A DNA stretch of 64,000 bases, from positions 16,034 through 80,033 of the forward strand of contig BEIL01000001.1 of the NCBI GenBank assembly GCA_002898235.1, read 5' to 3'. Source of the DNA: a bacterium HR35. Its GTDB lineage: Bacteria > Patescibacteriota > Minisyncoccia > UBA6257 > HR35. Shown in pieces: positions 1,968 through 64,000 of the stretch. The position numbers were made by a program, and so were the translations under genes. The first letter of the stretch is position 1. Each line of letters starts with the position of its first letter. The notes under the pieces are model-generated. The model saw only the letters and a list, made by a program, of their open reading frames with translations, was not told where the DNA came from and made no database searches.

Positions 1968-4610
1968 ATGATTTATCATTCTTGGGAGATAAAACGGGTA
2001 TTAGAAGAGTTTGAAACAGATTTTGTTGGTTTAACTACTGAAGAAGCTAAACAAAGACTTTTAAAATATGGGAAAAATTCTTTGCCAGAAGAAAAGGTTT
2101 CTTTAACCAGGATTTTTCTAAAGCAATTTAAAAATATCTTTAATTTAGTTTTATTTTTTGTTTTAATTTTGACTTTATATTTAGGTAAATTTGCTGACTC
2201 TTTTGTCGTTATTTTAATAATTTTAGTTAATGCTTTTATAGGTTTCTTTTTTGAATTACGAACAGAAAAAACTCTAAAGAAATTAAAAGAACTTTTAAAA
2301 CCCAAAGCTAAAGTTTTGAGAGATAAAGAATTGATTGAGATTAATGCTGAAAATTTAGTCCCGGGTGATATTGTTTTTGTTGAAGAAGGAGACATTATCC
2401 CCTCTGATTTAAGATTTTTTGAAATTGAAAATTTAAAAGTTGATGAATCAATTTTAACTGGAGAATCTTTACCTGTTGAAAAAGATATTAAAATCTTATC
2501 AGAGGATACACCAATATCTGAAATGAAAAATATTGGTTTTATGGGGAGTTATGTTGTTGAAGGAAAGGGGAAAGGAATTGTTGTAGCAACGGGTATTCAA
2601 ACTTATATAGGCTCAATCTACGAAAAATTTAAAAAAATAGAACAATTTGCACCTCATTTTGAAAAACTTTCTAAAGATTTAATTTTGAGAATGATTTTGA
2701 TCGCTGTTTCAACTTCAATCTTGATTTTTTATTTTGCTTTTCGAAAAAATTATAACTGGACAGAGACCTTGCTTTTTGTTTTATCGTCTTTTGTCTCTTC
2801 AATTCCTGAAGGATTGCCCGTGATTATAACTGTTCTTTTAGTAATCAGTGCTTATGCTTTATATAAGAAAAATATTTTAGTTAAAAATTTACAGGCAACT
2901 GAAAATTTATCAGTTATTAATCTTTTGCTTTCAGATAAAACTGGAACCTTAACTGAAAATATTATGACAGTAAGAAAAATATTTGTTAATAATGAAGAGA
3001 TTGAAATTACGGGAGAAGGTTATAATTTAGAAGGAAAATTTTTGAAAGATGGCAAAGAAATAAATATTTTAGAAAACTATCCCTTGATTAAACTTTTAAA
3101 TATTTGCGCTATCGTCAGTGAAGGCTCAATAATTAAAGATGGAGAATTTAAATTTAAAGGTAATCCTCGAGATATTGCTTTACTTATTTTGTTAGAAAAA
3201 TCTGGTTTTAAAAGAGAAGAAATCTTAGAAAAAGAAAAAATAAAGAAAAGAGAACCATTTTCAAGAATTAAAAAACATAAAAGAGTTATTGTTGAACATG
3301 AAAGGATTGAATCTTACTATTTAGGTGCTTTTGAGAAAATAATTAATGATTGCGATTATATTTTGACTTATGAAGGTGTAAAAGAATTTGAAAATAAAGA
3401 AGAAATTTTAAATAAAGCTCTTGAATATGCTAATAATGGTTTTACTATCTTAGCTGCTGCTTATAATGAAGGAGAAAGAGAAGAAAATTTAATTTTTGTT
3501 GGTTTGATTGCTTTGTATGATCCTCCGAAAAGAGGAATTAAAGAAACAATAGCTAAATTAAAATCAGCAGGAATAGATATTAGGATTTTGACAGGTGATC
3601 ATAAAGCAACAGCAGTTTATATTGCTAAAGAAATTGGTTTTGAAAATTTAAATGCAGTTGATGAGGAAGAAATTAAAGGTTTATCTGATGAAAAACTAAA
3701 AGAAGTATTAAAAAATACTTACATATTTGCTCGAATTACTCCTGAAACTAAATTAAAAATTTTAGAACTTTATCAAAAATTGGGTTATTCAGTTGCTTAT
3801 ATCGGTGATGGCGTTAACGATGTTTTAACTTTAAAAAAAGCAGAAGTCGGAGTTTGTATGGGAAAACGTGGTTCAGAAATTGCTAAATCAGCTAGTGATA
3901 TTATTTTAATTGATGATAATTTGGAAAGTTTACTTTCAGGTTTTATTGAGGGAAGAAAAATATTTAACAATCTTAAAAGAGTTGTTTTCTTTTTGGTTAC
4001 CACTAATGTTGCCGAAAGCTTAACGATTTTGGCTTCACTAATCTTAGGTTTTCCATTTATTTTAAAACCAACACATATTTTATTTTTAAATTTTGTAACT
4101 GATACTTTGGTTGGAACAGCTTTAGCTTTTGAAAAAGAACACGGTTATGAACTTCAATCAAAACCAAGAAACCCCAGAGAGTCGTTAATAAGCCTTGATT
4201 TATTGCCTTTTCTTTTAATGATGGCATCAATAATGATGATATTAACTGTTTTAATTTTTAGTGCTGAATATCTGTTTGACCTAAATAAAGCTAGAACTTA
4301 TGCATTTTTAGTTATGAGCTTAACTCAGCTTTATAATGCCTTAAATTTAAGATCATTAAATAGAAGTATATTTAGATTAAGTTTTAAACTAAATCCTTAC
4401 ATAATCGTTGAAATTATTTTATCATTGTTTTTACAATACTTTGTGATTTTTAATTCAACAGCGCGGTCAATTTTAGGCTTTAGTGAAATAAGTTTATTTG
4501 AATTTTTTGTTATTTTAATTTTAAGTTCTCTTGTATTGATAGTAGGTGAGTTATATAAGCTTATTAAAGGCAAATTTATTAAAATAAATAATAAATCTTA
4601 CTTTTCATAA
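1968..4610 (+). CDS. P-type cation-transporting ATPase (type II, Ca2+/Mg2+-like)
   Basis: DKTGTLT phosphorylation motif, PEGLPVII, TGDHKATA, and GDGVNDVLTLKKAEVGVCMG. About 10 TM segments flank the cytoplasmic domains. Confidence 0.85.
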   Translation: MIYHSWEIKRVLEEFETDFVGLTTEEAKQRLLKYGKNSLPEEKVSLTRIFLKQFKNIFNLVLFFVLILTLYLGKFADSFVVILIILVNAFIGFFFELRTEKTLKKLKELLKPKAKVLRDKELIEINAENLVPGDIVFVEEGDIIPSDLRFFEIENLKVDESILTGESLPVEKDIKILSEDTPISEMKNIGFMGSYVVEGKGKGIVVATGIQTYIGSIYEKFKKIEQFAPHFEKLSKDLILRMILIAVSTSILIFYFAFRKNYNWTETLLFVLSSFVSSIPEGLPVIITVLLVISAYALYKKNILVKNLQATENLSVINLLLSDKTGTLTENIMTVRKIFVNNEEIEITGEGYNLEGKFLKDGKEINILENYPLIKLLNICAIVSEGSIIKDGEFKFKGNPRDIALLILLEKSGFKREEILEKEKIKKREPFSRIKKHKRVIVEHERIESYYLGAFEKIINDCDYILTYEGVKEFENKEEILNKALEYANNGFTILAAAYNEGEREENLIFVGLIALYDPPKRGIKETIAKLKSAGIDIRILTGDHKATAVYIAKEIGFENLNAVDEEEIKGLSDEKLKEVLKNTYIFARITPETKLKILELYQKLGYSVAYIGDGVNDVLTLKKAEVGVCMGKRGSEIAKSASDIILIDDNLESLLSGFIEGRKIFNNLKRVVFFLVTTNVAESLTILASLILGFPFILKPTHILFLNFVTDTLVGTALAFEKEHGYELQSKPRNPRESLISLDLLPFLLMMASIMMILTVLIFSAEYLFDLNKARTYAFLVMSLTQLYNALNLRSLNRSIFRLSFKLNPYIIVEIILSLFLQYFVIFNSTARSILGFSEISLFEFFVILILSSLVLIVGELYKLIKGKFIKINNKSYFS

Positions 4611-36323: not shown

Positions 36324-37604
36324 ATGAAAAAACAAATAGTAATTTTAGGAGGAGGATTTGGTGGTGTTTATACTTTAAAATATTTGCATAAATTTTTTCA
36401 TAAACGCGGACTAAGGCAGACTGAACGCGGACTTACGCAGACAAGTATTAAATTAGTATTGGTGAATAGAAAAAATTATTTTATTTTTACGCCCTTGCTT
36501 CATGAAGTTGTTACTGGTGGAGTTTCAATTGATAATGCTTTAGAACCAATAAGAGAAATTATTAAATGCTGTGATTTTGATTTTATTCATGGAGAAGTTG
36601 AGAAAATTAATTTAGAAAATAAAATTGTTTATATTAATAAAGAAAAAGAAAATTATAAAGTTAATTATGATTATTTAGTTATTGCTTTAGGTTCAAAAAC
36701 AAATTATTATAATATTCCCGGTGCTAAAGAATATACTTTTTCGTTAAAAACAATTGATGATGCTATCAGATTGAAAAATCATTTTGTTCATATGTTTGAA
36801 TTAGCGAGTATATCGCAGAGTGAAGCAGCGATTAATAAATATTTAACTTTTGTAATCGTTGGGGGAGGAGCAACTGGAGTTGAGCTTGCTGGTGAAATGA
36901 GTGATTTGTTTTATAAAACTTTTAGCAAATTTTACCCACCAGCTTTAATTTCTCAAGTTAAAATCATCTTAGTTGAAAAGGGTAAAGAATTGATTCCTCA
37001 ATTTTCTCCCAAATTAAGACAAAAAGCATTAGAAAGATTAAAAAAATTAAAAGTTGATGTTAGATTAGAAAGAGGAGTTGTTGAAGTTGGTGAAGATTTT
37101 ATTAAACTTGATGATGGTAATATTATTGAAACAAAAACAGTTATTTGGGCAGCAGGAGTTGAACCAAATTTACCAGAAATCATTGGCAATGTTGAAAAAG
37201 ACAGTAGAGGGAGATTGGTTTTGAATGAATATTTACAAGTAAAAAATTATAATGATGTTTTTGCTATTGGTGATGTTTGTTGTTTTATTCAGGATCAAAA
37301 ACCTTTACCTCAATTAGCTCAAGTTGCAGTTAGACAAGCAAAAACAGTTGCTTTAAATATTAAAAACTCAATTGAAAATAAACCATTAGAAAAGTTTATC
37401 TACAAGCACACAGGCGACTTAATTTCAGTTGGTAGATTTTATGCTCTGGGTGAAATTAAAGGAATTGAATTTTCAGGTTTAATCAGTTGGTTTATTTGGA
37501 AAGGAGTTTATTTAACTAAAATGATTTCCTTTAGGGATCAAGTAAAAACATTTATTGATTGGTTTTTAAACCTATTTTTACCAAGAGATATAACTGAACT
37601 CTAA
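36324..37604 (+). CDS. ndh: type II NADH dehydrogenase / FAD-dependent pyridine-nucleotide-disulfide oxidoreductase
   Basis: Two Rossmann motifs, VILGGGFGGVY and IVGGGATGVELAGE. Contains a roughly 14 aa atypical insert RGLRQTERGLTQTS just after the first motif. Confidence 0.75.
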   Translation: MKKQIVILGGGFGGVYTLKYLHKFFHKRGLRQTERGLTQTSIKLVLVNRKNYFIFTPLLHEVVTGGVSIDNALEPIREIIKCCDFDFIHGEVEKINLENKIVYINKEKENYKVNYDYLVIALGSKTNYYNIPGAKEYTFSLKTIDDAIRLKNHFVHMFELASISQSEAAINKYLTFVIVGGGATGVELAGEMSDLFYKTFSKFYPPALISQVKIILVEKGKELIPQFSPKLRQKALERLKKLKVDVRLERGVVEVGEDFIKLDDGNIIETKTVIWAAGVEPNLPEIIGNVEKDSRGRLVLNEYLQVKNYNDVFAIGDVCCFIQDQKPLPQLAQVAVRQAKTVALNIKNSIENKPLEKFIYKHTGDLISVGRFYALGEIKGIEFSGLISWFIWKGVYLTKMISFRDQVKTFIDWFLNLFLPRDITEL

Positions 37605-40254: not shown

Positions 40255-40267
40255 TTCAATAACATTA

Positions 40268-40311
40268 TAGTAATTCAATAGTAATACAATAGTAATACAG
40301 TAGTAATCAAA
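40268..40311. repeat. 11 bp tandem repeat, four copies (TAGTAAT[T/A]CA[A/G])
   Basis: tagtaattcaa tagtaatacaa tagtaatacag tagtaatcaaaa, directly after the tktN stop. Confidence 0.8.
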
Positions 40312-40342: not shown

Positions 40343-41632
40343 ATGAGTTGGCTTATGGAAAAAAAGTATATTTTGATAGTATTATTTTTGCTTTTCTTGG
40401 GGCTAGTTTTAATTAAGCAAACAAAAATTAGAGCAGAAATCGCTTATTTTTATCCTCAAAGTTGTTTAGGAAGTTTTATTAATCCTGAAAAAGCCCAAGG
40501 AAAGCCCGAAGTTGATAATCCTGATTTAATAAATGAATCAAATTCTGCTGTTTATTTAGGCGGTTTTAAAGAAATTTATTGTGGAAATTTTCAAGGACCA
40601 GAAGTACAAGGCGAAATAAAGAAAATAACATTACATTTTAATTGGATTGTTACTAAAGAAAGGAGAGAAGCAGTTCTAACTGAACCAACCTCAACAAACG
40701 ATTCAAATATTTTAGAAAAAATTATTCCTCCGAAAACAATAGAAATAATACCAGCAACTCCAACAACTGAAACAGCACCTTTACCAAATACCACTCCAAC
40801 ACCAGAAGCAACCTCGACACCTCAGTCATCTTTTAACACGGATTCACGCGGATTATTATTACACGGATATACACGGAAATTATTTAACCTAGATAAAAAT
40901 TATCTAGATATCTTATTTTGGTGGAAAACAACTTTTGCTGAAGAAATGGCAACACCAATAGAATCGACAACACCTACAACCTTAACAACAACTCCATCAG
41001 AAGCTCAAAATCAATCAACTGAAACTCAATCAATAATAATTACAACAACTCCTACATCTACAGAAAATCAAACCGAAACAACCTCTTCTACTACAAGTAC
41101 TGAAGCATTGACTACTCCAACAACCTCAGAAACAACTTCATTAACAACCTCAACTCCTCCTAAAACTCTATTTGAAGTCCATTACACTTTGGATGGTGAA
41201 AATTGGACTTATCTTGGAGATATTAAAACGCAGACTAACGCAGACAACACGCAGACTAACGCAGACAACTATTTTATTCCCGATGTTTCTTTTGAAATAC
41301 CAGTAAATAATTGGCTTGATATTTCAAAAATTCAAATAAAAATCAATTCTTTACCTGATACTGACTACTATCTTTATTTAGAATCAATGTGGTTTGAAGT
41401 TGAATATGAACTTCCGCAAGCAACATCAACTATTTCAGAAATAACAAATTTTGTTGGTGGCACTATAAGTTCTTTAACAGAAAATTTTTCTAATGATACT
41501 TCTACATTGTCAGAAACCTCAACATCTTATGGCGAAGATGATGAAGAAATTTTAACTCCAACAAATTTAGAAAATGCTACTCCTACTCCTCATTACCTCC
41601 TCTTAAACAAAGAAAATATACTAAAGAAATAA
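40343..41632 (+). CDS. secreted Thr/Ser/Pro-rich (mucin-like) surface protein
   Basis: N-terminal signal anchor and long T/S/P low-complexity linkers. Contains in-frame short repeats (40836-40878 and 41228-41269). Confidence 0.4.
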   Translation: MSWLMEKKYILIVLFLLFLGLVLIKQTKIRAEIAYFYPQSCLGSFINPEKAQGKPEVDNPDLINESNSAVYLGGFKEIYCGNFQGPEVQGEIKKITLHFNWIVTKERREAVLTEPTSTNDSNILEKIIPPKTIEIIPATPTTETAPLPNTTPTPEATSTPQSSFNTDSRGLLLHGYTRKLFNLDKNYLDILFWWKTTFAEEMATPIESTTPTTLTTTPSEAQNQSTETQSIIITTTPTSTENQTETTSSTTSTEALTTPTTSETTSLTTSTPPKTLFEVHYTLDGENWTYLGDIKTQTNADNTQTNADNYFIPDVSFEIPVNNWLDISKIQIKINSLPDTDYYLYLESMWFEVEYELPQATSTISEITNFVGGTISSLTENFSNDTSTLSETSTSYGEDDEEILTPTNLENATPTPHYLLLNKENILKK

Positions 41633-41988
41633 AAATTCAAAATCCTGACAATATTTCTTGTAAAATAGAGCCATTTTCAATTGAAGTTAAAGAAGAAGAA
41701 ACAAAAACAGCCAATTTAATAATTTCAGCAAATAACACAAAAAACATTGAAATCGGAAGCTTGCCTTCAGGAATAGACATTCAATTAGAAAATAATAATT
41801 ACGAAATGCAAACATCAAATAATTCAATTCAACTAAAAATATATCGTCAACAAGGTTCAGACAAAGGCAACTTCAATATTCCAATAATCCTTTCCTCAGG
41901 CAATTCAACAATAATTTGTCAAATGAATATCATAGCATTTTAGTAGCTAGTAGCTAGTAATTAGTATCTAGTAGCTAGTAGTAGTAAG

Positions 41989-42336
41989 ATGAAAACAAAA
42001 TCTTTTAAGGAATTAATAGTTTGGCAAAGAGCAAAAGAATTAGCAATAGAAGTATATAAATTAACATCAAAATTTCCAAAGTCAGAGCTTTTTGGATTAA
42101 CAAACCAAATGAGAAGAGCTTCAATTTCTATTTCTTCAAATATTGCTGAAAGTTATCATCGCTTCCATTCTAAAGAGAAAAAACAATTTTTAGCAGTTGC
42201 CTTTGGCTCTGGAGCAGAATTAGAAAGCCAAATTGAAATTGCTAAATCACTTTTTCCAAATTTAGATTATTCAAAAGTAGAAACATTACTTGCAGATATA
42301 ATGAAAATTTTAAATAAAATTATTAATAAAAAATGA
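41989..42336 (+). CDS. four-helix-bundle protein of the 23S rRNA intervening-sequence protein / Avd family
   Basis: WQRAKELAIEVYKLTSKFPKSELFGLTNQMRRASISISSNIAEG is the characteristic motif of this family. The stop overlaps the next start (ATGA). Confidence 0.7.
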   Translation: MKTKSFKELIVWQRAKELAIEVYKLTSKFPKSELFGLTNQMRRASISISSNIAESYHRFHSKEKKQFLAVAFGSGAELESQIEIAKSLFPNLDYSKVETLLADIMKILNKIINKK

Positions 42337-45797: not shown

Positions 45798-45957
45798 TTA
45801 GTAGCTAGTAATTAGTAATTAGTAACTAATAGTAATGCAATAAAAAAATTTTTTTGACAAAATATGATATAATTTTAGTAAAATAAGCTCGCCCTGTAGT
45901 GAAACGAATTTTCTACTACAGGGGTAGAAGGGTCGAAAATTAAATAAAAAAAATCAA

Positions 45958-47534: not shown

Positions 47535-48581
47535 ATGAATTTAAAAAATTTTTTCAATGTTGTTTTAATAATTTTCTTCTCGTTTTTATTACTTTATGCT
47601 TTTAATTATTTAAAATCTGCAGGTGTAACTATTAAAGCTTTTGTGCCTGGAGTTTGTGGCAATAATCTTAAAGAACCAGGAGAAGAATGTGATGGTCCTG
47701 ATTTAGGAGGTCAAAGCTGCGTTTCTTTAGGTTATTCAGGAGGAACTTTGTCTTGTAATTCTAATTGTACTTTTAATGCTTCACAATGCACTATCTCCCC
47801 GCCAAGTGGAGGAGGCGGAGGCGGTGGAGCATATATACCTCCTTATGGAACAGTTATTCTTTCAGGAAGAGCCCAACCAAATTCTGATGTTACTTTAATT
47901 TCAGATGGCCAAATAAGAACAATTATCAAAGCTGATACTGATGGAAAATTTAAATTTACTCTTTCCAACCTAACCCCAGGCAATTATATTTTTACTTTAT
48001 ATGCTGAAGATACTGAGGGAAGAAGGACAAGCTTACATTCAGTTCCAGCAGTAGTTACCGCAGGTCTTACAATTGAAATAGGTAATATTTTTCTTTCACC
48101 AACAATTGATATTGATAAAATACAAGTTAAGCGTGGAGATATTTTAAGAATTTTTGGTCAAACAGCTCCTGATTCTAATGTTTTGATTGTTGTTTCTTCT
48201 GAAGAAGAATTATATTTTCAAACTCAAGCAGAAAAAGATGGAAGTTATTTATATGCCTTAGATACTACAATTTTAGATTATGGCCAGCATTTTACAAAAT
48301 CAAGATCAATTTTAGCCAATCAATTAGTTAGTTCTTTTTCAAAAGCTTTAGCATTTCAGGTTTCAACAACTTCGGTAGTTAAAAAACCAACAAAATGTCC
48401 ATTAAAAGGTGATTTAAACAATGATTGCAGAGTAAATTTGATTGATTTTTCAATTGCTGCTTATTGGTATAAAAGAAAATTAAGTCCAAATTTTGCTAAA
48501 ATTGAAAAAGAGAAATTAAACGGAGATGGAAAGGTCGATTTGGTTGATTTTAGTATTATGGCGTATTGGTGGACGGGATAA
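47535..48581 (+). CDS. dockerin-containing surface protein (N-terminal signal anchor, Cys-rich repeat, Gly linker, Ig-like region, C-terminal dockerin)
   Basis: Two dockerin-type Ca-binding segments, DLNNDCRVNLIDFSIAAYW and LNGDGKVDLVDFSIMAYW. A CGNNLKEPGEECDGPDLGGQSC Cys-rich repeat. Confidence 0.55.
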   Translation: MNLKNFFNVVLIIFFSFLLLYAFNYLKSAGVTIKAFVPGVCGNNLKEPGEECDGPDLGGQSCVSLGYSGGTLSCNSNCTFNASQCTISPPSGGGGGGGAYIPPYGTVILSGRAQPNSDVTLISDGQIRTIIKADTDGKFKFTLSNLTPGNYIFTLYAEDTEGRRTSLHSVPAVVTAGLTIEIGNIFLSPTIDIDKIQVKRGDILRIFGQTAPDSNVLIVVSSEEELYFQTQAEKDGSYLYALDTTILDYGQHFTKSRSILANQLVSSFSKALAFQVSTTSVVKKPTKCPLKGDLNNDCRVNLIDFSIAAYWYKRKLSPNFAKIEKEKLNGDGKVDLVDFSIMAYWWTG

Positions 48582-48584
48582 TAG

Positions 48585-48800
48585 ATGTTTCGCGAGTTGG
48601 CTTTTATATATCGCACACACGCCTATGAGCACCGGCACTCAACTTCCTCCAGCGGCAAGTTGGTGCCTCGTGGTCTCGGCTCAAAAACTTTGCCATCTGC
48701 TGAAAGCAGACTGGCAAAGACCAAGCTTTTTAAGCCTCCGACACGTGCTCTACGGCGTGGTGCTCGACAAAATGTCTGCGTCAGTCTGCGTTTTATACAA
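48585..48800. other. 220 bp GC-rich (about 50% GC) intergenic element with internal inverted repeats
   Basis: Sharp composition jump versus flanks. Hairpin potential in GGCACTCAACTT...AAGTTGGTGCC and GCAGACTG...CAGTCTGC. Ends with GTCTGCGTCAGTCTGCGTT, the reverse complement of the ACGCAGAC motif seen in in-frame insertions elsewhere. Confidence 0.5.
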
Positions 48801-48802
48801 AA

Positions 48803-49621
48803 ATGGCAAAAATTTATTTACAAATAGATAAGGAAGTGAATACTAATTATTTCACAGTTCCTATTTATCTTGACACCGAAGGTGAATCAGTTAATGCTTT
48901 TGAAGTGAAGATAAAAACATCTAACAATTTGATTTTTAGAGATTATTTAGAAAAAGATTCAATTATTAGTTATTGGATTGAAAAACCTTCAATTAAAGAA
49001 AATATTTTGTCATTTTCAGGAATTACTCCAGGTGGTTATATTGGTAAAAAGGGTTTGTTGGTAAATTTAATTTTTGAAGCTAAACAAAACGGACAAGCTT
49101 TTATTGAAATTTTACCTTCATCACAAATTTTACTAAACGATGGTTTAGGAACTAAGGCAGGATTAAAAACAGATAGATATGAATTTTTGTTAAATATTAC
49201 TCAAACTCAAAAAATAAGCATTGAAGACCGTTATCCTCCAGAACCATTTAAAATTTATCCTCAAAGAAATAAGGAAATTTTTAACAATAAGTATTACATT
49301 ATTTTTGAGGCTAAAGATAAACAATCAGGTATAGCTTATTATGAAGCTGCTGAAGTTCCTATCTGTATAAATCTAGGTTTAACCTGCGAAAATCCTCGTT
49401 TTGAAAAAGTCTCATCTCCATATCTTTTAAAAGATCAATCTTTAAGAAGCTATATTTATGTTAAAGCAGTTGATCGAGCAGGAAATGAAAGAATTGAAAT
49501 TTTAAAACCACAAAGATTGTTTTTAGCTGAAGAAATTTTGTTTTTCTTTATTTTTAGTAGTTTGTTTATTTTAGGAATCATTTTTTATAATAAAATTAAA
49601 TGGCATTTAAGAATAAAATAA
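48803..49621 (+). CDS. cohesin-like domain protein with C-terminal TM anchor; N-terminal signal peptide apparently missing
   Basis: Cohesin-like N-domain aligns with that of the next gene (AKIYLQIDKEVNTNYFTVPIYLDT vs ASIYLSPAQKTVNVGDSFSIVVYVES, then LVNLIFEAKQNGQAFIEIL...LLNDGLG). An Ig-like ...SGIAYY...VDRAGN domain. The ORF begins exactly at the mature-domain boundary, immediately after the GC-rich element. Confidence 0.45.
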   Translation: MAKIYLQIDKEVNTNYFTVPIYLDTEGESVNAFEVKIKTSNNLIFRDYLEKDSIISYWIEKPSIKENILSFSGITPGGYIGKKGLLVNLIFEAKQNGQAFIEILPSSQILLNDGLGTKAGLKTDRYEFLLNITQTQKISIEDRYPPEPFKIYPQRNKEIFNNKYYIIFEAKDKQSGIAYYEAAEVPICINLGLTCENPRFEKVSSPYLLKDQSLRSYIYVKAVDRAGNERIEILKPQRLFLAEEILFFFIFSSLFILGIIFYNKIKWHLRIK

Positions 49622-51322: not shown

Positions 51323-52480
51323 ATGCTTAATCCAGAATTAAAATTGAATCCAAAAATTTTTGATGAAGATATTGAGCAAAAGCCAATTAGAGATGGTTAT
51401 AGTGATGCTTTGGTTGAGCTTGGAGAAAAAAATCCTGATGTTGTTGTTTTAACTGCTGATTTAGCTGAATCAACCAGAGCTCATAAATTTGCCGAAAAAT
51501 TTCCTGAAAGATTTATTGAATGCGGAGTGGCTGAACAAAATATGGCTGGTATTGCTGCTGGTTTAGGTGTAAGTGGTAAAATTGCTTTTATTTCCTCTTA
51601 TGCAACTTTTTCTCCTGGCAAAAATTGGGAAACAATTAGAACAACAATAATTTATAATGATTCAAATGTAAAAATTGCCGGTCATCATTCAGGAATTGTT
51701 ACTGGTCCTGATGGTGCCACTCATCAAGCAACCGAAGATATAGCTATTATGAGATGCTTACCGAATGTTAGAATAATTTCTCCTTGTGACTTTTGGGAAG
51801 CAAAAAAAGCAACTTTATATTCAGCAGAAGTTTATGGTCCTTTTTATATTAGATATGTAAGAGATAAAACACCTATAATAACAACAGAAGAAACACCTTT
51901 TAGATTTGGAAAAATTGAAGAATTCTGGATACCAAACACAGACCATACACGGACTATACACGGACAGAACAGACAAAATAATAAGTCCGAACAGTCTGAG
52001 TCTAGTCCGAATCAGTCCGTGTTAAGTCCAAACAAGTCCGTGTCTAGTCCGAACAAGTCCGTGAGTATGCAGAATAACGCAGATAAAAATATAGTTGCTA
52101 TTTTTGCAACTGGACATCTAGTTTATCAGGCACTTTTGGCTGCTAAAGAATTAGAAGAGGAGGGAATAGATGTTTATGTTTTGAATGTTCATACAATAAA
52201 ACCACTTGATGTTGAAAAAATTTTTGAAATTGCAAAAAAAGTTAGAGGAATAGTTACTTTAGAAGACCACCAAGTTCAAGGAGGAATGGGAAGCGCAATT
52301 AGTGAAGCTTTAATGAATATTGATTTTCAAAAACAATATGGCCTTTTTTCTGTTCCTCCGATTAAATTTTTAGGACTTCAAAATACTTTTGGTGAATCGG
52401 GCAAACCCAATGAATTAATTCAAAAATATGGAATGGATAAAGAGGCAGTAAAAAAGGCGGTTTATGAGTTTCTTAAATGA
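51323..52480 (+). CDS. transketolase, C-terminal subunit of a split enzyme, with a roughly 50 aa low-complexity in-frame insertion
   Basis: Pyrimidine-binding and C-terminal transketolase domains (FIECGVAEQNMAGIAAG, GPDGATHQATEDIAIMR). Insertion PNTDHTRTIHGQNRQNNKSEQSESSPNQSVLSPNKSVSSPNKSVSMQNNADKN at nt 51935-52090. Confidence 0.8.
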   Translation: MLNPELKLNPKIFDEDIEQKPIRDGYSDALVELGEKNPDVVVLTADLAESTRAHKFAEKFPERFIECGVAEQNMAGIAAGLGVSGKIAFISSYATFSPGKNWETIRTTIIYNDSNVKIAGHHSGIVTGPDGATHQATEDIAIMRCLPNVRIISPCDFWEAKKATLYSAEVYGPFYIRYVRDKTPIITTEETPFRFGKIEEFWIPNTDHTRTIHGQNRQNNKSEQSESSPNQSVLSPNKSVSSPNKSVSMQNNADKNIVAIFATGHLVYQALLAAKELEEEGIDVYVLNVHTIKPLDVEKIFEIAKKVRGIVTLEDHQVQGGMGSAISEALMNIDFQKQYGLFSVPPIKFLGLQNTFGESGKPNELIQKYGMDKEAVKKAVYEFLK

Positions 52481-63339: not shown

Positions 63340-64000
63340 TTAGTCAAACTTTCTTTTTATTATACCTCCACCTAAAACTAAATCATCTTTATAAAAGACA
63401 ATTGATTGGCCAGGGGCTATCATTTTTTGAGGTTCAAGAAATTCTACATACGCAGACTTAACTGAACTATTCTGTAAGTTTTGTTTTAGTTCTATAAATT
63501 CTGTATTATTTGTTAGAATAAGCTTTGCTTTGACTAGTGGTTGACGATAACGAAACCGAACATCAAAAATTTCTTCTTTTTCTAAAATTTCTTTTTCCAA
63601 AATATTAATTTCAGTAATTTCAATTCTTTTAGTATAAAGTACTGGTTCTCCTTCTTTAGCAACAACAATTAAATTCTCTTCTGGTATTTTTTTTACTACA
63701 TAATAAGGCCCTCCGCCAATTTTTATGTTTAATCCATGTCTTTGTCCTTCAGTAAAATAAAAATAACCAGGATGTTTGCCTAAAATATTCCCTTTAGTAT
63801 CAATAATCAAACCCTCTTTAGGTTTTAAATAGTTGTTTAAAAATTCTCTTAATTTAACTGGACCAACAAAACAAATTCCAGAACTTCCTTTTTTAAAAGC
63901 GTTAGGAAAATTATTTTCTGAAGCAATTTTTCTTACTTCCTCTTTGGTTAATTCTCCTATAGGAAAAATTATTTTTTCCAATTTATCTTTTTTAATTTTC
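63340..64000 (-). CDS. mnmA: tRNA-specific 2-thiouridylase MnmA (C-terminal part; N-terminus lies beyond the window end)
   Basis: Central and C-terminal MnmA domains, including ...GICFVGP... and PGQSIVFYKDDLVLGGGII. The ORF runs open to the window edge. Confidence 0.7.
   Translation of the reverse strand, partial: KIKKDKLEKIIFPIGELTKEEVRKIASENNFPNAFKKGSSGICFVGPVKLREFLNNYLKPKEGLIIDTKGNILGKHPGYFYFTEGQRHGLNIKIGGGPYYVVKKIPEENLIVVAKEGEPVLYTKRIEITEINILEKEILEKEEIFDVRFRYRQPLVKAKLILTNNTEFIELKQNLQNSSVKSAYVEFLEPQKMIAPGQSIVFYKDDLVLGGGIIKRKFD

What the first reader, a model, noticed from the sequence alone, without database searches (positions are those of the whole stretch)
40836..41269. Two further in-frame short tandem repeats of the same family in the mucin-like surface protein gene
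40836-40878 reads acacggattcacgcggattattattacacggatatacacggaaa. 41228-41269 is a perfect 2x tandem of acgcagactaacgcagacaac, encoding TQTNADN twice. Copy-number variable in-frame repeats in a surface protein suggest phase or antigenic variation by slipped-strand mispairing.
Basis: seen in the sequence. Interest (0 to 1): 0.5.

Follow-up and report, generated by a model that had tools for sequence, protein, structure and literature searches.

The report
Dispersed GC-rich decamer repeats inside genes
The two short repeats are real, but they belong to a GC-rich 10-11-base repeat family that also sits in frame inside housekeeping enzymes of this tiny bacterium and, in its relatives, brackets a nuclease-like gene inserted into those same enzymes, so they look like footprints of a poorly known selfish DNA element rather than a switch for varying a surface protein.

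Summary
Both repeats exist as described. 41228-41269 is a perfect 2x21 bp repeat. Each array is really four units of an 8-nt GC-rich core (ACRCRGAY) spaced 10-11 bp (10/15/10 in the first array). The core is about 50-fold over-represented in this AT-rich window, which comes from Parcubacteria 'bacterium HR35'. It is not specific to the surface-like protein. The same units sit in frame in NDH-2 and in transketolase-C, where they form forward plus reverse-complement arms (a hairpin), and upstream of another gene. In relatives, the same enzyme sites carry a complete GxxExxY (PDDEXK_3) nuclease-like domain in frame, bracketed by forward and reverse-complement unit arrays. Host genes include transketolase, NDH-2 and RecG. 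ORF-less arrays occur in UvrA and IF-2. Orthologues of the finding's gene lack array 2. Array 1 is an older insertion shared with a paralogue. Both encode low-confidence segments of the AlphaFold model. The best reading is ORF-less remnants of an insertion-prone, probably mobile, repeat/nuclease element tolerated in loops. Copy number of such arrays does vary between near-identical strains, seen in transketolase. For these two arrays an independent assembly shows the same copy number. Phase or antigenic variation is not supported. I found no description of this element family in the searchable literature.

The parts
41228..41269 (+). Array 2: four forward units ACGCAGAC spaced 10/11/10 bp (a perfect 2x21 bp repeat), encoding TQTNADN twice. 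It is an HR35-specific insertion in a loop of the conserved beta domain.
   Evidence: Orthologues have NENNWQN at this position. The encoded segment is the low-pLDDT loop 295-301 between strands of the model.
40836..40878 (+). Array 1: four forward units (ACACGGAT, ACGCGGAT, ACACGGAT, ACACGGAA) spaced 10/15/10 bp, encoding NTDSRGLLLHGYTR. It is an older, decaying insertion in the disordered T/S-rich linker.
   Evidence: The paralogue in L160 has a homologous insert at the same site, sharing 'tcatcttttaa...ttcacgNggattatta', and still has a reverse-complement arm. The syntenic orthologue P0122 has no insert.
40343..41943 (+). Host gene: a Parcubacteria-specific protein with an N-terminal TM helix, T/S-rich linkers and beta-sandwich domains. 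In the window it reads as ORF 40343..41632 because of a 1-bp deletion near 41589. The intact product is 529 aa.
36404..36442 (+). Same-family array (ACGCGGAC, AGGCAGAC, ACGCGGAC, ACGCAGAC; spacing 10/11/10) in frame in NDH-2, encoding RGLRQTERGLTQT directly after the GGGFGG Rossmann motif region.
   Evidence: Orthologues are either empty or carry other unit inserts at this site.
51936..51976 (+). Forward arm (ACACAGAC, ACACGGAC x2, ACAGAC; period 11) of an ORF-less hairpin-type insert in the inter-domain linker of transketolase-C.
51983..52063 (+). Reverse-complement arm (GTCCGTGT/GTCCGAAC units; TRF period 21 x3.9) of the same transketolase insert. Forward and reverse arms fold as a hairpin.
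   Evidence: Fold z-scores are -3.6 (DNA) and -4.5 (RNA). Relatives carry a GxxExxY domain between equivalent arms at exactly this site.
48774..48791 (-). Two units ACGCAGAC (read on the minus strand), 10 bp apart, just upstream of the ATG at 48803. This position is syntenic with the downstream arm of a free-standing GxxExxY gene in relatives.

Best explanation
The two repeats are ORF-less arrays of a dispersed repeat family. The family is built from a GC-rich 8-nt core (ACRCRGAY) repeated about once per DNA helical turn. Spacing is 10 bp in non-coding DNA. In three of this window's coding arrays it is 10/11/10 (21 bp per pair of units) and in the transketolase arms it is period 11 or 21. In related Patescibacteria, a forward array and a reverse-complement array form the two ends of a cassette that carries a GxxExxY (PDDEXK_3, PD-(D/E)XK-fold) gene. 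These cassettes, their ORF-less hairpin derivatives, and single arms are found inserted in frame, without stop codons, into loops and linkers of unrelated genes. The copies seen in coding DNA are those that purifying selection tolerates. I infer that the element is selfish and insertion-prone, with the GxxExxY protein as the candidate enzyme that recognises its own arrays, by analogy with RAYT and REPINs. Arrays then decay or expand locally by slippage. The perfect 2x21 bp of array 2 would be a recent duplication of this kind. The encoded TQTNADN and NTDSRG peptides are passengers in a loop and a disordered linker, with no demonstrated function. Shown: family membership, dispersal, in-frame insertion polymorphism, association with GxxExxY, and array copy-number change between strains. 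Inferred: mobility, the mobilising enzyme, and the neutrality of the peptides.
For: The core is over-represented in the window: 10 occurrences against 0.19 expected and 10 against 1.17. All clustered copies fall into five arrays, in three genes and one intergenic site. Transketolase-C orthologues are normally about 330 aa. Many relatives carry variable inserts at the HR35 site. About 40 cluster representatives carry a PDDEXK_3 domain there, flanked by RINADTTQMNAD (forward units) and NPRQSALNRRSSV (reverse units). NDH-2 orthologues show four insertion hot spots, including HR35's. P0239 has the full domain flanked by TQTNADN... and ...SLQKSAS. RecG carries the domain between its DEAD and Helicase_C domains with the same kind of flanks. 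UvrA and IF-2 of other Patescibacteria carry ORF-less arrays, and the IF-2 peptide TQTNADN is identical to the finding's. Of 23 non-redundant GxxExxY copies, 17 share at least 3 inverted 8-mers between the 200 nt upstream and the 200 nt downstream. The mean is 7.1, against 1.3 for cross-copy controls. The two syntenic relatives have a free-standing GxxExxY gene where the window keeps only two reverse units. Array 2 is absent from all 17 aligned orthologues. Array 1 is shared with a paralogue that still has the reverse arm. Both arrays encode low-confidence segments of the model. Catalytic-type residues of the inserted domain (G..E..Y, D, E.K) are invariant across nine diverse copies. In genome loci from several phyla, 28 of 130 arrays have at least 2 reverse-complement units within 120 nt, against 0 of 126 for arrays of permuted control units. 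Eight assemblies occur at least twice among the 80 listed loci, where about 0.02 coincident pairs would be expected. Near-identical alleles differ by a 48-bp array duplication.
Against: No transposition event, target-site duplication or excision footprint was demonstrated. The 64-kb window has no GxxExxY gene, and I could not examine the rest of the genome. The two arrays of the finding have no reverse-complement partner, so their link to the cassette rests on the shared unit, spacing and insertion behaviour. Unit sequences differ between copies (ACGCAGAC, ACACGGAT, ACACGAAT, ACGCGAAC). This could mean several families, or local generation rather than spread. Raw database counts of three-unit arrays are no higher than for permuted control units in viral contigs: 37 against 19, 57 and 47. 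The cross-phylum claim therefore rests on the inverted-partner and multi-copy statistics, not on counts. Translation of the inserts is inferred from open frames only.
Confidence: 0.68

Rival explanations
1. Contingency locus. The in-frame repeats change copy number by slipped-strand mispairing, to vary or switch a surface antigen.
For: The host protein is plausibly surface-exposed. Array 2 is a perfect tandem duplication. Arrays of this family do vary in copy number between near-identical strains.
Against: The same units sit in cytoplasmic enzymes and in intergenic DNA and flank a nuclease-like gene in relatives. There are only two copies of the 21-bp repeat. A 21-bp step keeps the frame, so nothing is switched. 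Two assemblies have the same copy number. Orthologues show presence/absence rather than a copy-number series. The observed copy-number variant is in transketolase, not in a surface protein.
Confidence: 0.07
2. Host-functional DNA sites. The helically phased arrays are binding sites for a host protein (a regulator, nucleoid protein or recombination factor), and the copies in coding DNA are incidental or exploit that protein.
For: Spacing of 10 bp (274 of 301 spacings) places the cores on one face of the helix. Many non-CPR arrays are intergenic, just before genes. One viral contig has five same-strand arrays, each directly upstream of a ribosome-binding-like site and a start codon.
Against: Insertion into the middle of conserved enzymes at several independent sites, presence/absence polymorphism among orthologues, and paired inverted arms around a nuclease-like ORF are typical of selfish insertions rather than operators. 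Unit sequence differs from copy to copy within one genome.
Confidence: 0.12
3. RNA-level element. The inverted arrays form a transcribed stem that is processed, like the RNase III stems of 23S rRNA intervening sequences, which can encode the related four-helix-bundle proteins. This would regulate or fragment the host transcript.
For: The transketolase insert folds far better than shuffles as RNA (z = -4.5). The GxxExxY and four-helix-bundle (23S_rRNA_IVP) gene families share this kind of flanking array. An IVP gene lies next to the finding's gene.
Against: Every coding insertion examined keeps the frame, is free of stop codons and retains an intact domain. That would be unnecessary if the segment were excised, and cleavage without religation would destroy essential mRNAs. 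The two arrays of the finding have no partner arm with which to pair.
Confidence: 0.08
4. Independent local microsatellite-like expansions that resemble each other only because of composition or mutational bias.
For: Tandem decamer arrays of arbitrary sequence are common in databases (controls). Unit sequences are not identical between loci.
Against: A GC-rich, CpG-containing core recurs in five places in a 27% GC window, with 0 of 100 shuffles matching. The same spacers and peptides (TRTIHGQN...SEQSVLSPKKS; TQTNADN) recur in different genes of different genomes. Inverted partner arms occur in 22% of real arrays and 0% of control arrays.
Confidence: 0.04

Closest known systems
Rickettsia palindromic elements (RPEs) and other intragenic MITEs such as Coxiella QMITEs
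   Same: Short, dispersed, palindromic repeats inserted in frame into unrelated, often essential, protein genes. They encode a passenger peptide at positions compatible with the fold (review PMC10969869). Here that applies to transketolase, NDH-2, IF-2, UvrA, RecG and the finding's gene.
   Different: There is no sequence or taxonomic relation to RPEs. These arms are built from tandem 10-11-bp units rather than a unique 100-150-bp consensus. A full-length version carries a PD-(D/E)XK-fold gene that is itself translated in frame with the host protein. No TIR/TSD signature was established.
REP/REPIN sequences with their RAYT transposase (own knowledge: Nunvar 2010; Bertels and Rainey 2011)
   Same: An enzyme gene is flanked by inverted copies of its own short repeat. 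Many ORF-less palindromic copies are dispersed in the genome. The repeat variant is specific to each gene copy.
   Different: The associated protein is GxxExxY/PDDEXK_3, not an HUH Y1 transposase. The repeats are tandem arrays. REPINs are extragenic, whereas these are often intragenic and in frame.
Simple-sequence contingency loci (phase variation by slipped-strand mispairing)
   Same: Tandem repeats lie inside a gene for a probable surface protein. Copy-number change was seen in this repeat family.
   Different: The step size keeps the frame. There are only two to four units. The same repeats lie in housekeeping genes and non-coding DNA. No heterogeneity was seen for these arrays.
Inteins and homing-endonuclease insertions
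   Same: A nuclease-fold domain is inserted in frame into conserved sites of essential proteins (RecG, transketolase, NDH-2).
   Different: No Hint or splicing domain was detected (one search finds only PDDEXK_3 plus the host domains). The junctions are repeat-encoded peptides, not Cys/Ser...His-Asn. Many different target sites are used rather than one homing site.
23S rRNA intervening sequences encoding four-helix-bundle proteins (PF05635/TIGR02436)
   Same: A small ORF is bracketed by inverted repeats and inserted into a conserved gene. A member of that protein family lies immediately downstream of the finding's gene and has its own flanking unit arrays.
   Different: The hosts here are protein-coding genes and the insert is read through in frame. 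The IVP gene next to the finding is syntenically conserved and is not inside an rRNA gene.
Yeast mitochondrial GC clusters (own knowledge)
   Same: GC-rich palindromic mobile clusters in a very AT-rich genome, sometimes in frame within coding sequence (var1).
   Different: They occur in an organelle, have a different sequence organisation, have no associated nuclease-domain cassette and are not built from decamer arrays.

Membership tests
Contingency locus (SSR-mediated phase/antigenic variation) | A change of repeat number switches or alters expression, by frameshift or promoter spacing. | tested here: not met
   The perfect repeat is 21 bp (7 codons). Gain or loss keeps the frame.
Contingency locus (SSR-mediated phase/antigenic variation) | Repeat-number heterogeneity between reads, assemblies or strains at this locus. 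| tested here: inconclusive
   Two consensus assemblies are identical at both arrays. No read-level data or same-species strains were available. A related array in transketolase does vary.
Contingency locus (SSR-mediated phase/antigenic variation) | The repeats are restricted to surface or virulence genes. | tested here: not met
   The same units lie in NDH-2, in transketolase-C and in intergenic DNA.
In-frame selfish palindromic repeats (RPE/MITE-like) | Multi-copy and dispersed within a genome. | tested here: met
   There are five arrays in 64 kb, with the core about 50-fold over expectation. Eight other assemblies have at least 2 loci each.
In-frame selfish palindromic repeats (RPE/MITE-like) | In-frame, stop-free insertion into unrelated genes, with presence/absence among orthologues. 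| tested here: met
In-frame selfish palindromic repeats (RPE/MITE-like) | Palindromic (inverted-arm) structure. | tested here: inconclusive
   Met for the transketolase insert and for 22% of arrays in other genomes. Not met for the two arrays of the finding, which are forward-only.
In-frame selfish palindromic repeats (RPE/MITE-like) | Terminal inverted repeats with target-site duplications, and derivation from an IS transposase. | not tested
   No sufficiently close empty/filled site pairs were available. The associated ORF is PDDEXK_3, not a known transposase.
REPIN-RAYT system | The associated gene is an HUH Y1 (IS200/IS605-like) transposase. | tested here: not met
   The flanked ORF hits only PDDEXK_3 / TIGR04256 GxxExxY.
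Intein | A Hint splicing domain with conserved junction residues. | tested here: not met
   Pfam finds only PDDEXK_3 plus host domains in P0033, P0239 and the L140 RecG. The junction peptides are repeat-encoded.
GxxExxY-cassette with decamer-array ends (family as delineated here) | Units of an ACRCRGAY-type core with 10-11-bp spacing. | tested here: met
   Both arrays. The same spacing is seen in arrays flanking GxxExxY genes.
GxxExxY-cassette with decamer-array ends (family as delineated here) | A GxxExxY ORF lies between the arms. | tested here: not met
   There is no GxxExxY gene anywhere in the window. The window's copies are ORF-less.
Diversity-generating retroelement (considered because of the adjacent bAvd-like gene) | A reverse transcriptase and a TR/VR repeat pair near the Avd gene. 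| tested here: not met
   The adjacent gene fits 23S_rRNA_IVP/TIGR02436 far better than Avd (1e-32 against 7e-6 and 3e-5). No RVT domain is among the called genes within 10 kb in the syntenic loci L124, L125, L126 and L160.

The most novel reading that the evidence does not exclude
The arrays are the non-autonomous form of an undescribed class of mobile element. In this class a PD-(D/E)XK-fold GxxExxY nuclease gene is bounded by inverted arrays of helically phased 10-bp units. The element inserts into essential genes and survives there by being translated straight through as an extra domain, with no splicing. Relatives of the same unit array are dispersed across many bacterial phyla.
Probability: 0.4. 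Interest if true: 0.85.

Novelty: new variant of a known kind. Interest (0 to 1): 0.62.

Why it matters
GxxExxY (PDDEXK_3/TIGR04256) and the four-helix-bundle '23S rRNA IVS' proteins are large, widespread families with no known function. The only classification I found lists PDDEXK_3 as 'Unknown' (PMC3424549). The anatomy seen here gives a concrete, testable hypothesis: the GxxExxY protein acts on its own flanking arrays. That anatomy is inverted decamer arrays around the gene, ORF-less hairpins and single arms scattered in frame through essential genes of genome-reduced Patescibacteria, and presence/absence at the same sites among relatives. There is also a practical consequence. Such inserts inflate and fragment gene calls in CPR genomes, create apparent 'low-complexity' regions and domain fusions (transketolase annotated as 'GxxExxY protein'), and could mislead repeat-based inferences of phase variation.

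Tried and rejected
1. Rfam. The gathering scan of the window finds only five tRNAs. An E-value scan of 48540-48830 finds nothing meaningful.
2. I asked whether the GC-rich intergenic segment 48583-48770 is a decayed GxxExxY gene. tblastn gave no hit.
3. A PDB sequence search with the GxxExxY profile gave only non-significant hits: BpuSI at E = 0.19 and T7 endonuclease I at E = 0.4.
4. A DGR reading of the neighbouring bAvd-like gene was rejected (see the membership test).
5. I used database counts as evidence for a cross-phylum family. My arithmetic null of about 1 expected match proved useless, because permuted-unit controls gave similar counts in viral contigs. I replaced it with inverted-partner and same-genome-recurrence statistics.
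6. I looked for a conserved tail after the arrays (GGAAGGAT). It is present in only 14 of 184 arrays, mostly in a few viral contigs and cyanobacteria.
7. I tried to walk along the HR35 contig to look for a GxxExxY gene. Three look-ups found no record.
9. Literature searches for the unit sequence, GxxExxY and PDDEXK_3 found no description of these arrays.
Full report
**The observation**

Tandem Repeats Finder reports 41228-41269 as a perfect two-copy repeat of 21 bp, and also as 3.9 copies of a 10-bp unit. It reports 40836-40884 as an imperfect two-copy repeat of about 25 bp.

Read closely, each is an array of four copies of an 8-nt GC-rich core followed by a short spacer:
- Array 2 is ACGCAGAC-TA, ACGCAGAC-AAC, repeated twice, with spacing 10/11/10.
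- Array 1 is ACACGGAT, ACGCGGAT, ACACGGAT, ACACGGAA, with spacing 10/15/10.

Both are in frame and encode TQTNADNTQTNADN and NTDSRGLLLHGYTR.

The window has 24-37% GC, so a CpG-containing core stands out. ACGCRGAC occurs 10 times against 0.19 expected, and no shuffle reached 10. ACRCGGA occurs 10 times against 1.17 expected.

**The repeats are not specific to this gene**

The clustered copies of the core fall into five arrays:
- the two arrays of the finding;
- 36404-36442, in frame in an NDH-2 gene, inserting RGLRQTERGLTQT just after the N-terminal Rossmann motif;
- 51936-52063, in frame in the linker between the pyrimidine-binding and C-terminal domains of a transketolase C-terminal subunit;
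- two units on the opposite strand at 48774-48791, just upstream of a start codon.

The transketolase insert has a forward arm (period 11) followed by a reverse-complement arm (period 21, 3.9 copies). It folds as a hairpin much better than shuffled sequence, with z = -3.6 as DNA and -4.5 as RNA.

**Source organism and the host gene**

The transketolase, NDH-2 and host proteins are 100% identical to proteins of 'bacterium HR35', a Parcubacteria (CPR/Patescibacteria) metagenome-assembled genome.

An independent Logan assembly of run DRR101367 matches the window over 12,561 bp. The only difference is one missing T near 41589 in the window. That deletion truncates the host ORF. The intact protein has 529 residues and ends at 41943. 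All arrays have the same copy number in both assemblies.

The host protein belongs to a Parcubacteria-specific family with no Pfam or NCBIfam match. An AlphaFold model built from 59 homologues shows the following:
- an N-terminal transmembrane helix;
- a beta domain split by a long disordered T/S-rich linker;
- a second disordered linker;
- a C-terminal Ig-like beta sandwich.

Structure matches are to generic Ig-like adhesin and S-layer domains. 'Mucin-like surface protein' is therefore a reasonable but unproven label.

**What orthologues show**

In an alignment of 18 family members, array 2 is present only in HR35. The others have NENNWQN at that place in a conserved domain. In the model the insert is the low-confidence loop between two strands.

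Array 1 lies in the disordered linker. The syntenic orthologue has nothing there. A paralogue in a relative (L160) has a homologous insert at the same site, with shared flanking and internal sequence, and it still carries a reverse-complement arm of GTCTGCGT-type units. Array 1 is therefore an older insertion that has lost one arm.

Transketolase-C orthologues are normally about 330 residues. Many relatives have variable inserts at HR35's site and at a second site, with recurring peptides (QTNAD, RINAD, NTDIS, SEQSVLSPKKS) that are translations of the same DNA units.

NDH-2 orthologues show four such hot spots. HR35's site is occupied in relatives by different unit inserts. One of these has the same ACACGGAC/GTCCGTGT units and AT-rich loop as HR35's transketolase insert.

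**The link to a nuclease-like gene**

About 40 transketolase-C cluster representatives of 484-571 residues carry a PDDEXK_3 (GxxExxY) domain in frame at exactly the HR35 insertion site. An aligned subset shows it preceded by forward-unit peptides (RINADTTQMNAD) and followed by reverse-unit peptides (NPRQSALNRRSSV, DPHESVSYPNKSV). The DNA confirms forward ACGCGGAT-type units on the left and ATCCGCGT units on the right.

The same arrangement occurs in frame in two more host genes:
- in NDH-2 of a close relative (P0239);
- in RecG of a different, 43-46% GC lineage, between the DEAD and Helicase_C domains.

The two syntenic relatives have a free-standing GxxExxY gene, flanked by ACACGAAT/ATTCGTGT units, in the intergenic space where HR35 keeps only two reverse units.

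A metagenome scan recovered 33 GxxExxY loci. Of 23 non-redundant copies, 17 share at least three inverted 8-mers between their upstream and downstream 200 nt. The mean is 7.1, against 1.3 when flanks of different copies are paired. The unit sequence differs between copies, but the left and right arms of one copy agree.

The G..E..Y, D and E.K positions are invariant across nine diverse copies, including in-frame ones. This argues that the inserted domain is under selection as a protein.

The 64-kb window itself contains no GxxExxY gene.

**Beyond this lineage**

ORF-less arrays of the same units sit in frame in UvrA and in the G domain of IF-2 of other Patescibacteria. The IF-2 insert begins with the very peptide TQTNADN and continues with a reverse arm.

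A scan of one genome per species for three consecutive units returned at least 120 loci from many phyla. Permuted-unit controls in the viral collection gave counts similar to the real unit: 19, 57 and 47 against 37. I therefore do not treat the count as evidence.

Two features do discriminate:
- In the genome loci, 28 of 130 arrays have at least two reverse-complement units within 120 nt, against 0 of 126 for control arrays. Spacing is 10 bp in 274 of 301 cases.
- Eight assemblies recur among the 80 listed loci, where about 0.02 coincident pairs would be expected.

Three of these loci have a GxxExxY gene between the arms.

In this window's coding arrays the spacing is 10/11/10 (NDH-2 and array 2), period 11 or 21 (transketolase arms) or 10/15/10 (array 1). 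The 10/11 alternation also occurs in the IF-2 and UvrA arrays. It is not universal: spacing in the L002 transketolase array is 10/10/10.

**Copy-number change**

Two metagenome populations carry transketolase-C alleles that are identical over all 511 aligned residues. The only difference is a 48-bp tandem duplication of the left array. Arrays of this family therefore do expand and contract. The example is in a cytoplasmic enzyme and the change is in frame.

**Interpretation**

The simplest account is that the two repeats are ORF-less pieces of an insertion-prone repeat/nuclease element that is tolerated in a loop and a disordered linker. The closest analogies are Rickettsia palindromic elements and other intragenic MITEs, which insert in frame into unrelated genes (PMC10969869), and the REPIN/RAYT arrangement of an enzyme gene flanked by its own repeats.

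The element fails the defining tests of several known families. There is no HUH transposase, no Hint domain, no reverse transcriptase, and no TIR/TSD evidence.

Mobility, the role of GxxExxY as the mobilising enzyme, and the neutrality of the encoded peptides are inferences.

- the 21-bp step cannot switch the frame;
- the family is not tied to surface proteins;
- the two assemblies agree on copy number;
- orthologues differ by presence or absence of the insert.

**Literature**

Full-text searches found three papers mentioning GxxExxY, of which I read the single GxxExxY passage in one; that passage does not concern these arrays. One paper lists PDDEXK_3 with unknown function, and none contain the array sequence. 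Searches on CPR insertions and 23S IVS proteins did not turn up this phenomenon. Absence from the held library is not proof that the element is undescribed.

Noticed in passing
window 41585-41595 (versus L126 11221-11240): The window lacks one T (CTCC-TCATT against CTCCTTCATT) relative to an independent assembly that is otherwise identical over 12,561 bp. This truncates the host gene at 41632. The downstream frame to 41943 encodes the conserved C-terminal Ig-like domain. It is probably an assembly error or a minor variant.
   Followed up: yes
window 48583-48770: A GC-rich intergenic segment of about 190 nt folds very stably on either strand (z = -5.0 and -5.3) and has no Rfam match. It sits exactly where two syntenic relatives carry a free-standing GxxExxY gene, and it is followed by two reverse units. 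It is a candidate structured RNA or alternative cargo. It was not found in any other fetched locus.
   Followed up: partly
window 41989-42336, with 41941-41986, 45798-45825 and 40267-40307; L160 7855-7920 and 8290-8390; L125 15720-15775 and 16140-16230: A four-helix-bundle gene (23S_rRNA_IVP/TIGR02436) lies directly downstream of the finding's gene in HR35, L124 and L160; in L125 a 1307-aa gene lies between them. These genes are bracketed by their own AT-rich tandem units (TAGTAGC; GTAATACAATA, period 11) with reverse-complement copies downstream. The array at 40267-40307 upstream of the finding's gene uses the same unit as the L160 IVP arm. The GxxExxY and IVP genes thus seem to share one style of flanking array.
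   Followed up: partly
L171 (IMG/VR contig, 63% GC), arrays at rc positions 3262, 4700, 6645, 7072 and 7902: Five same-strand arrays of ACGCRGAT-ga units each end in cggaaggat and are followed within a few bases by the start codon of the next gene. The same tail follows some cyanobacterial arrays (L005, L033). This suggests a regulatory or translational role in that context.
   Followed up: partly
L063 2714-4342 (IF-2) and L039 1-1566 (UvrA, minus strand): Other Patescibacteria carry the same units in frame inside the G domain of IF-2 (TQTNADNTRNYADSPRESALSPRESAS, between G2 and G3) and inside UvrA (NADYTQTDAD).
   Followed up: yes
L140-L142 (metagenome contigs, 43-46% GC): RecG helicase has a complete PDDEXK_3 domain inserted in frame between the DEQH box and the TATPIPR motif, flanked by TDADKTQKNAD and SKSASHLQKSAS.
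   Followed up: yes
L124 and L160 (both GCA_026004515.1): The relative KatS3mg095 has two copies of the module (host-family gene, IVP gene, BNR-like gene, 209-aa and 291-aa genes) on different contigs. This is either a segmental duplication or two strains binned together.
   Followed up: no
window 63450-63457: A single isolated ACGCAGAC core lies inside a minus-strand gene. It is probably a chance occurrence.
   Followed up: no
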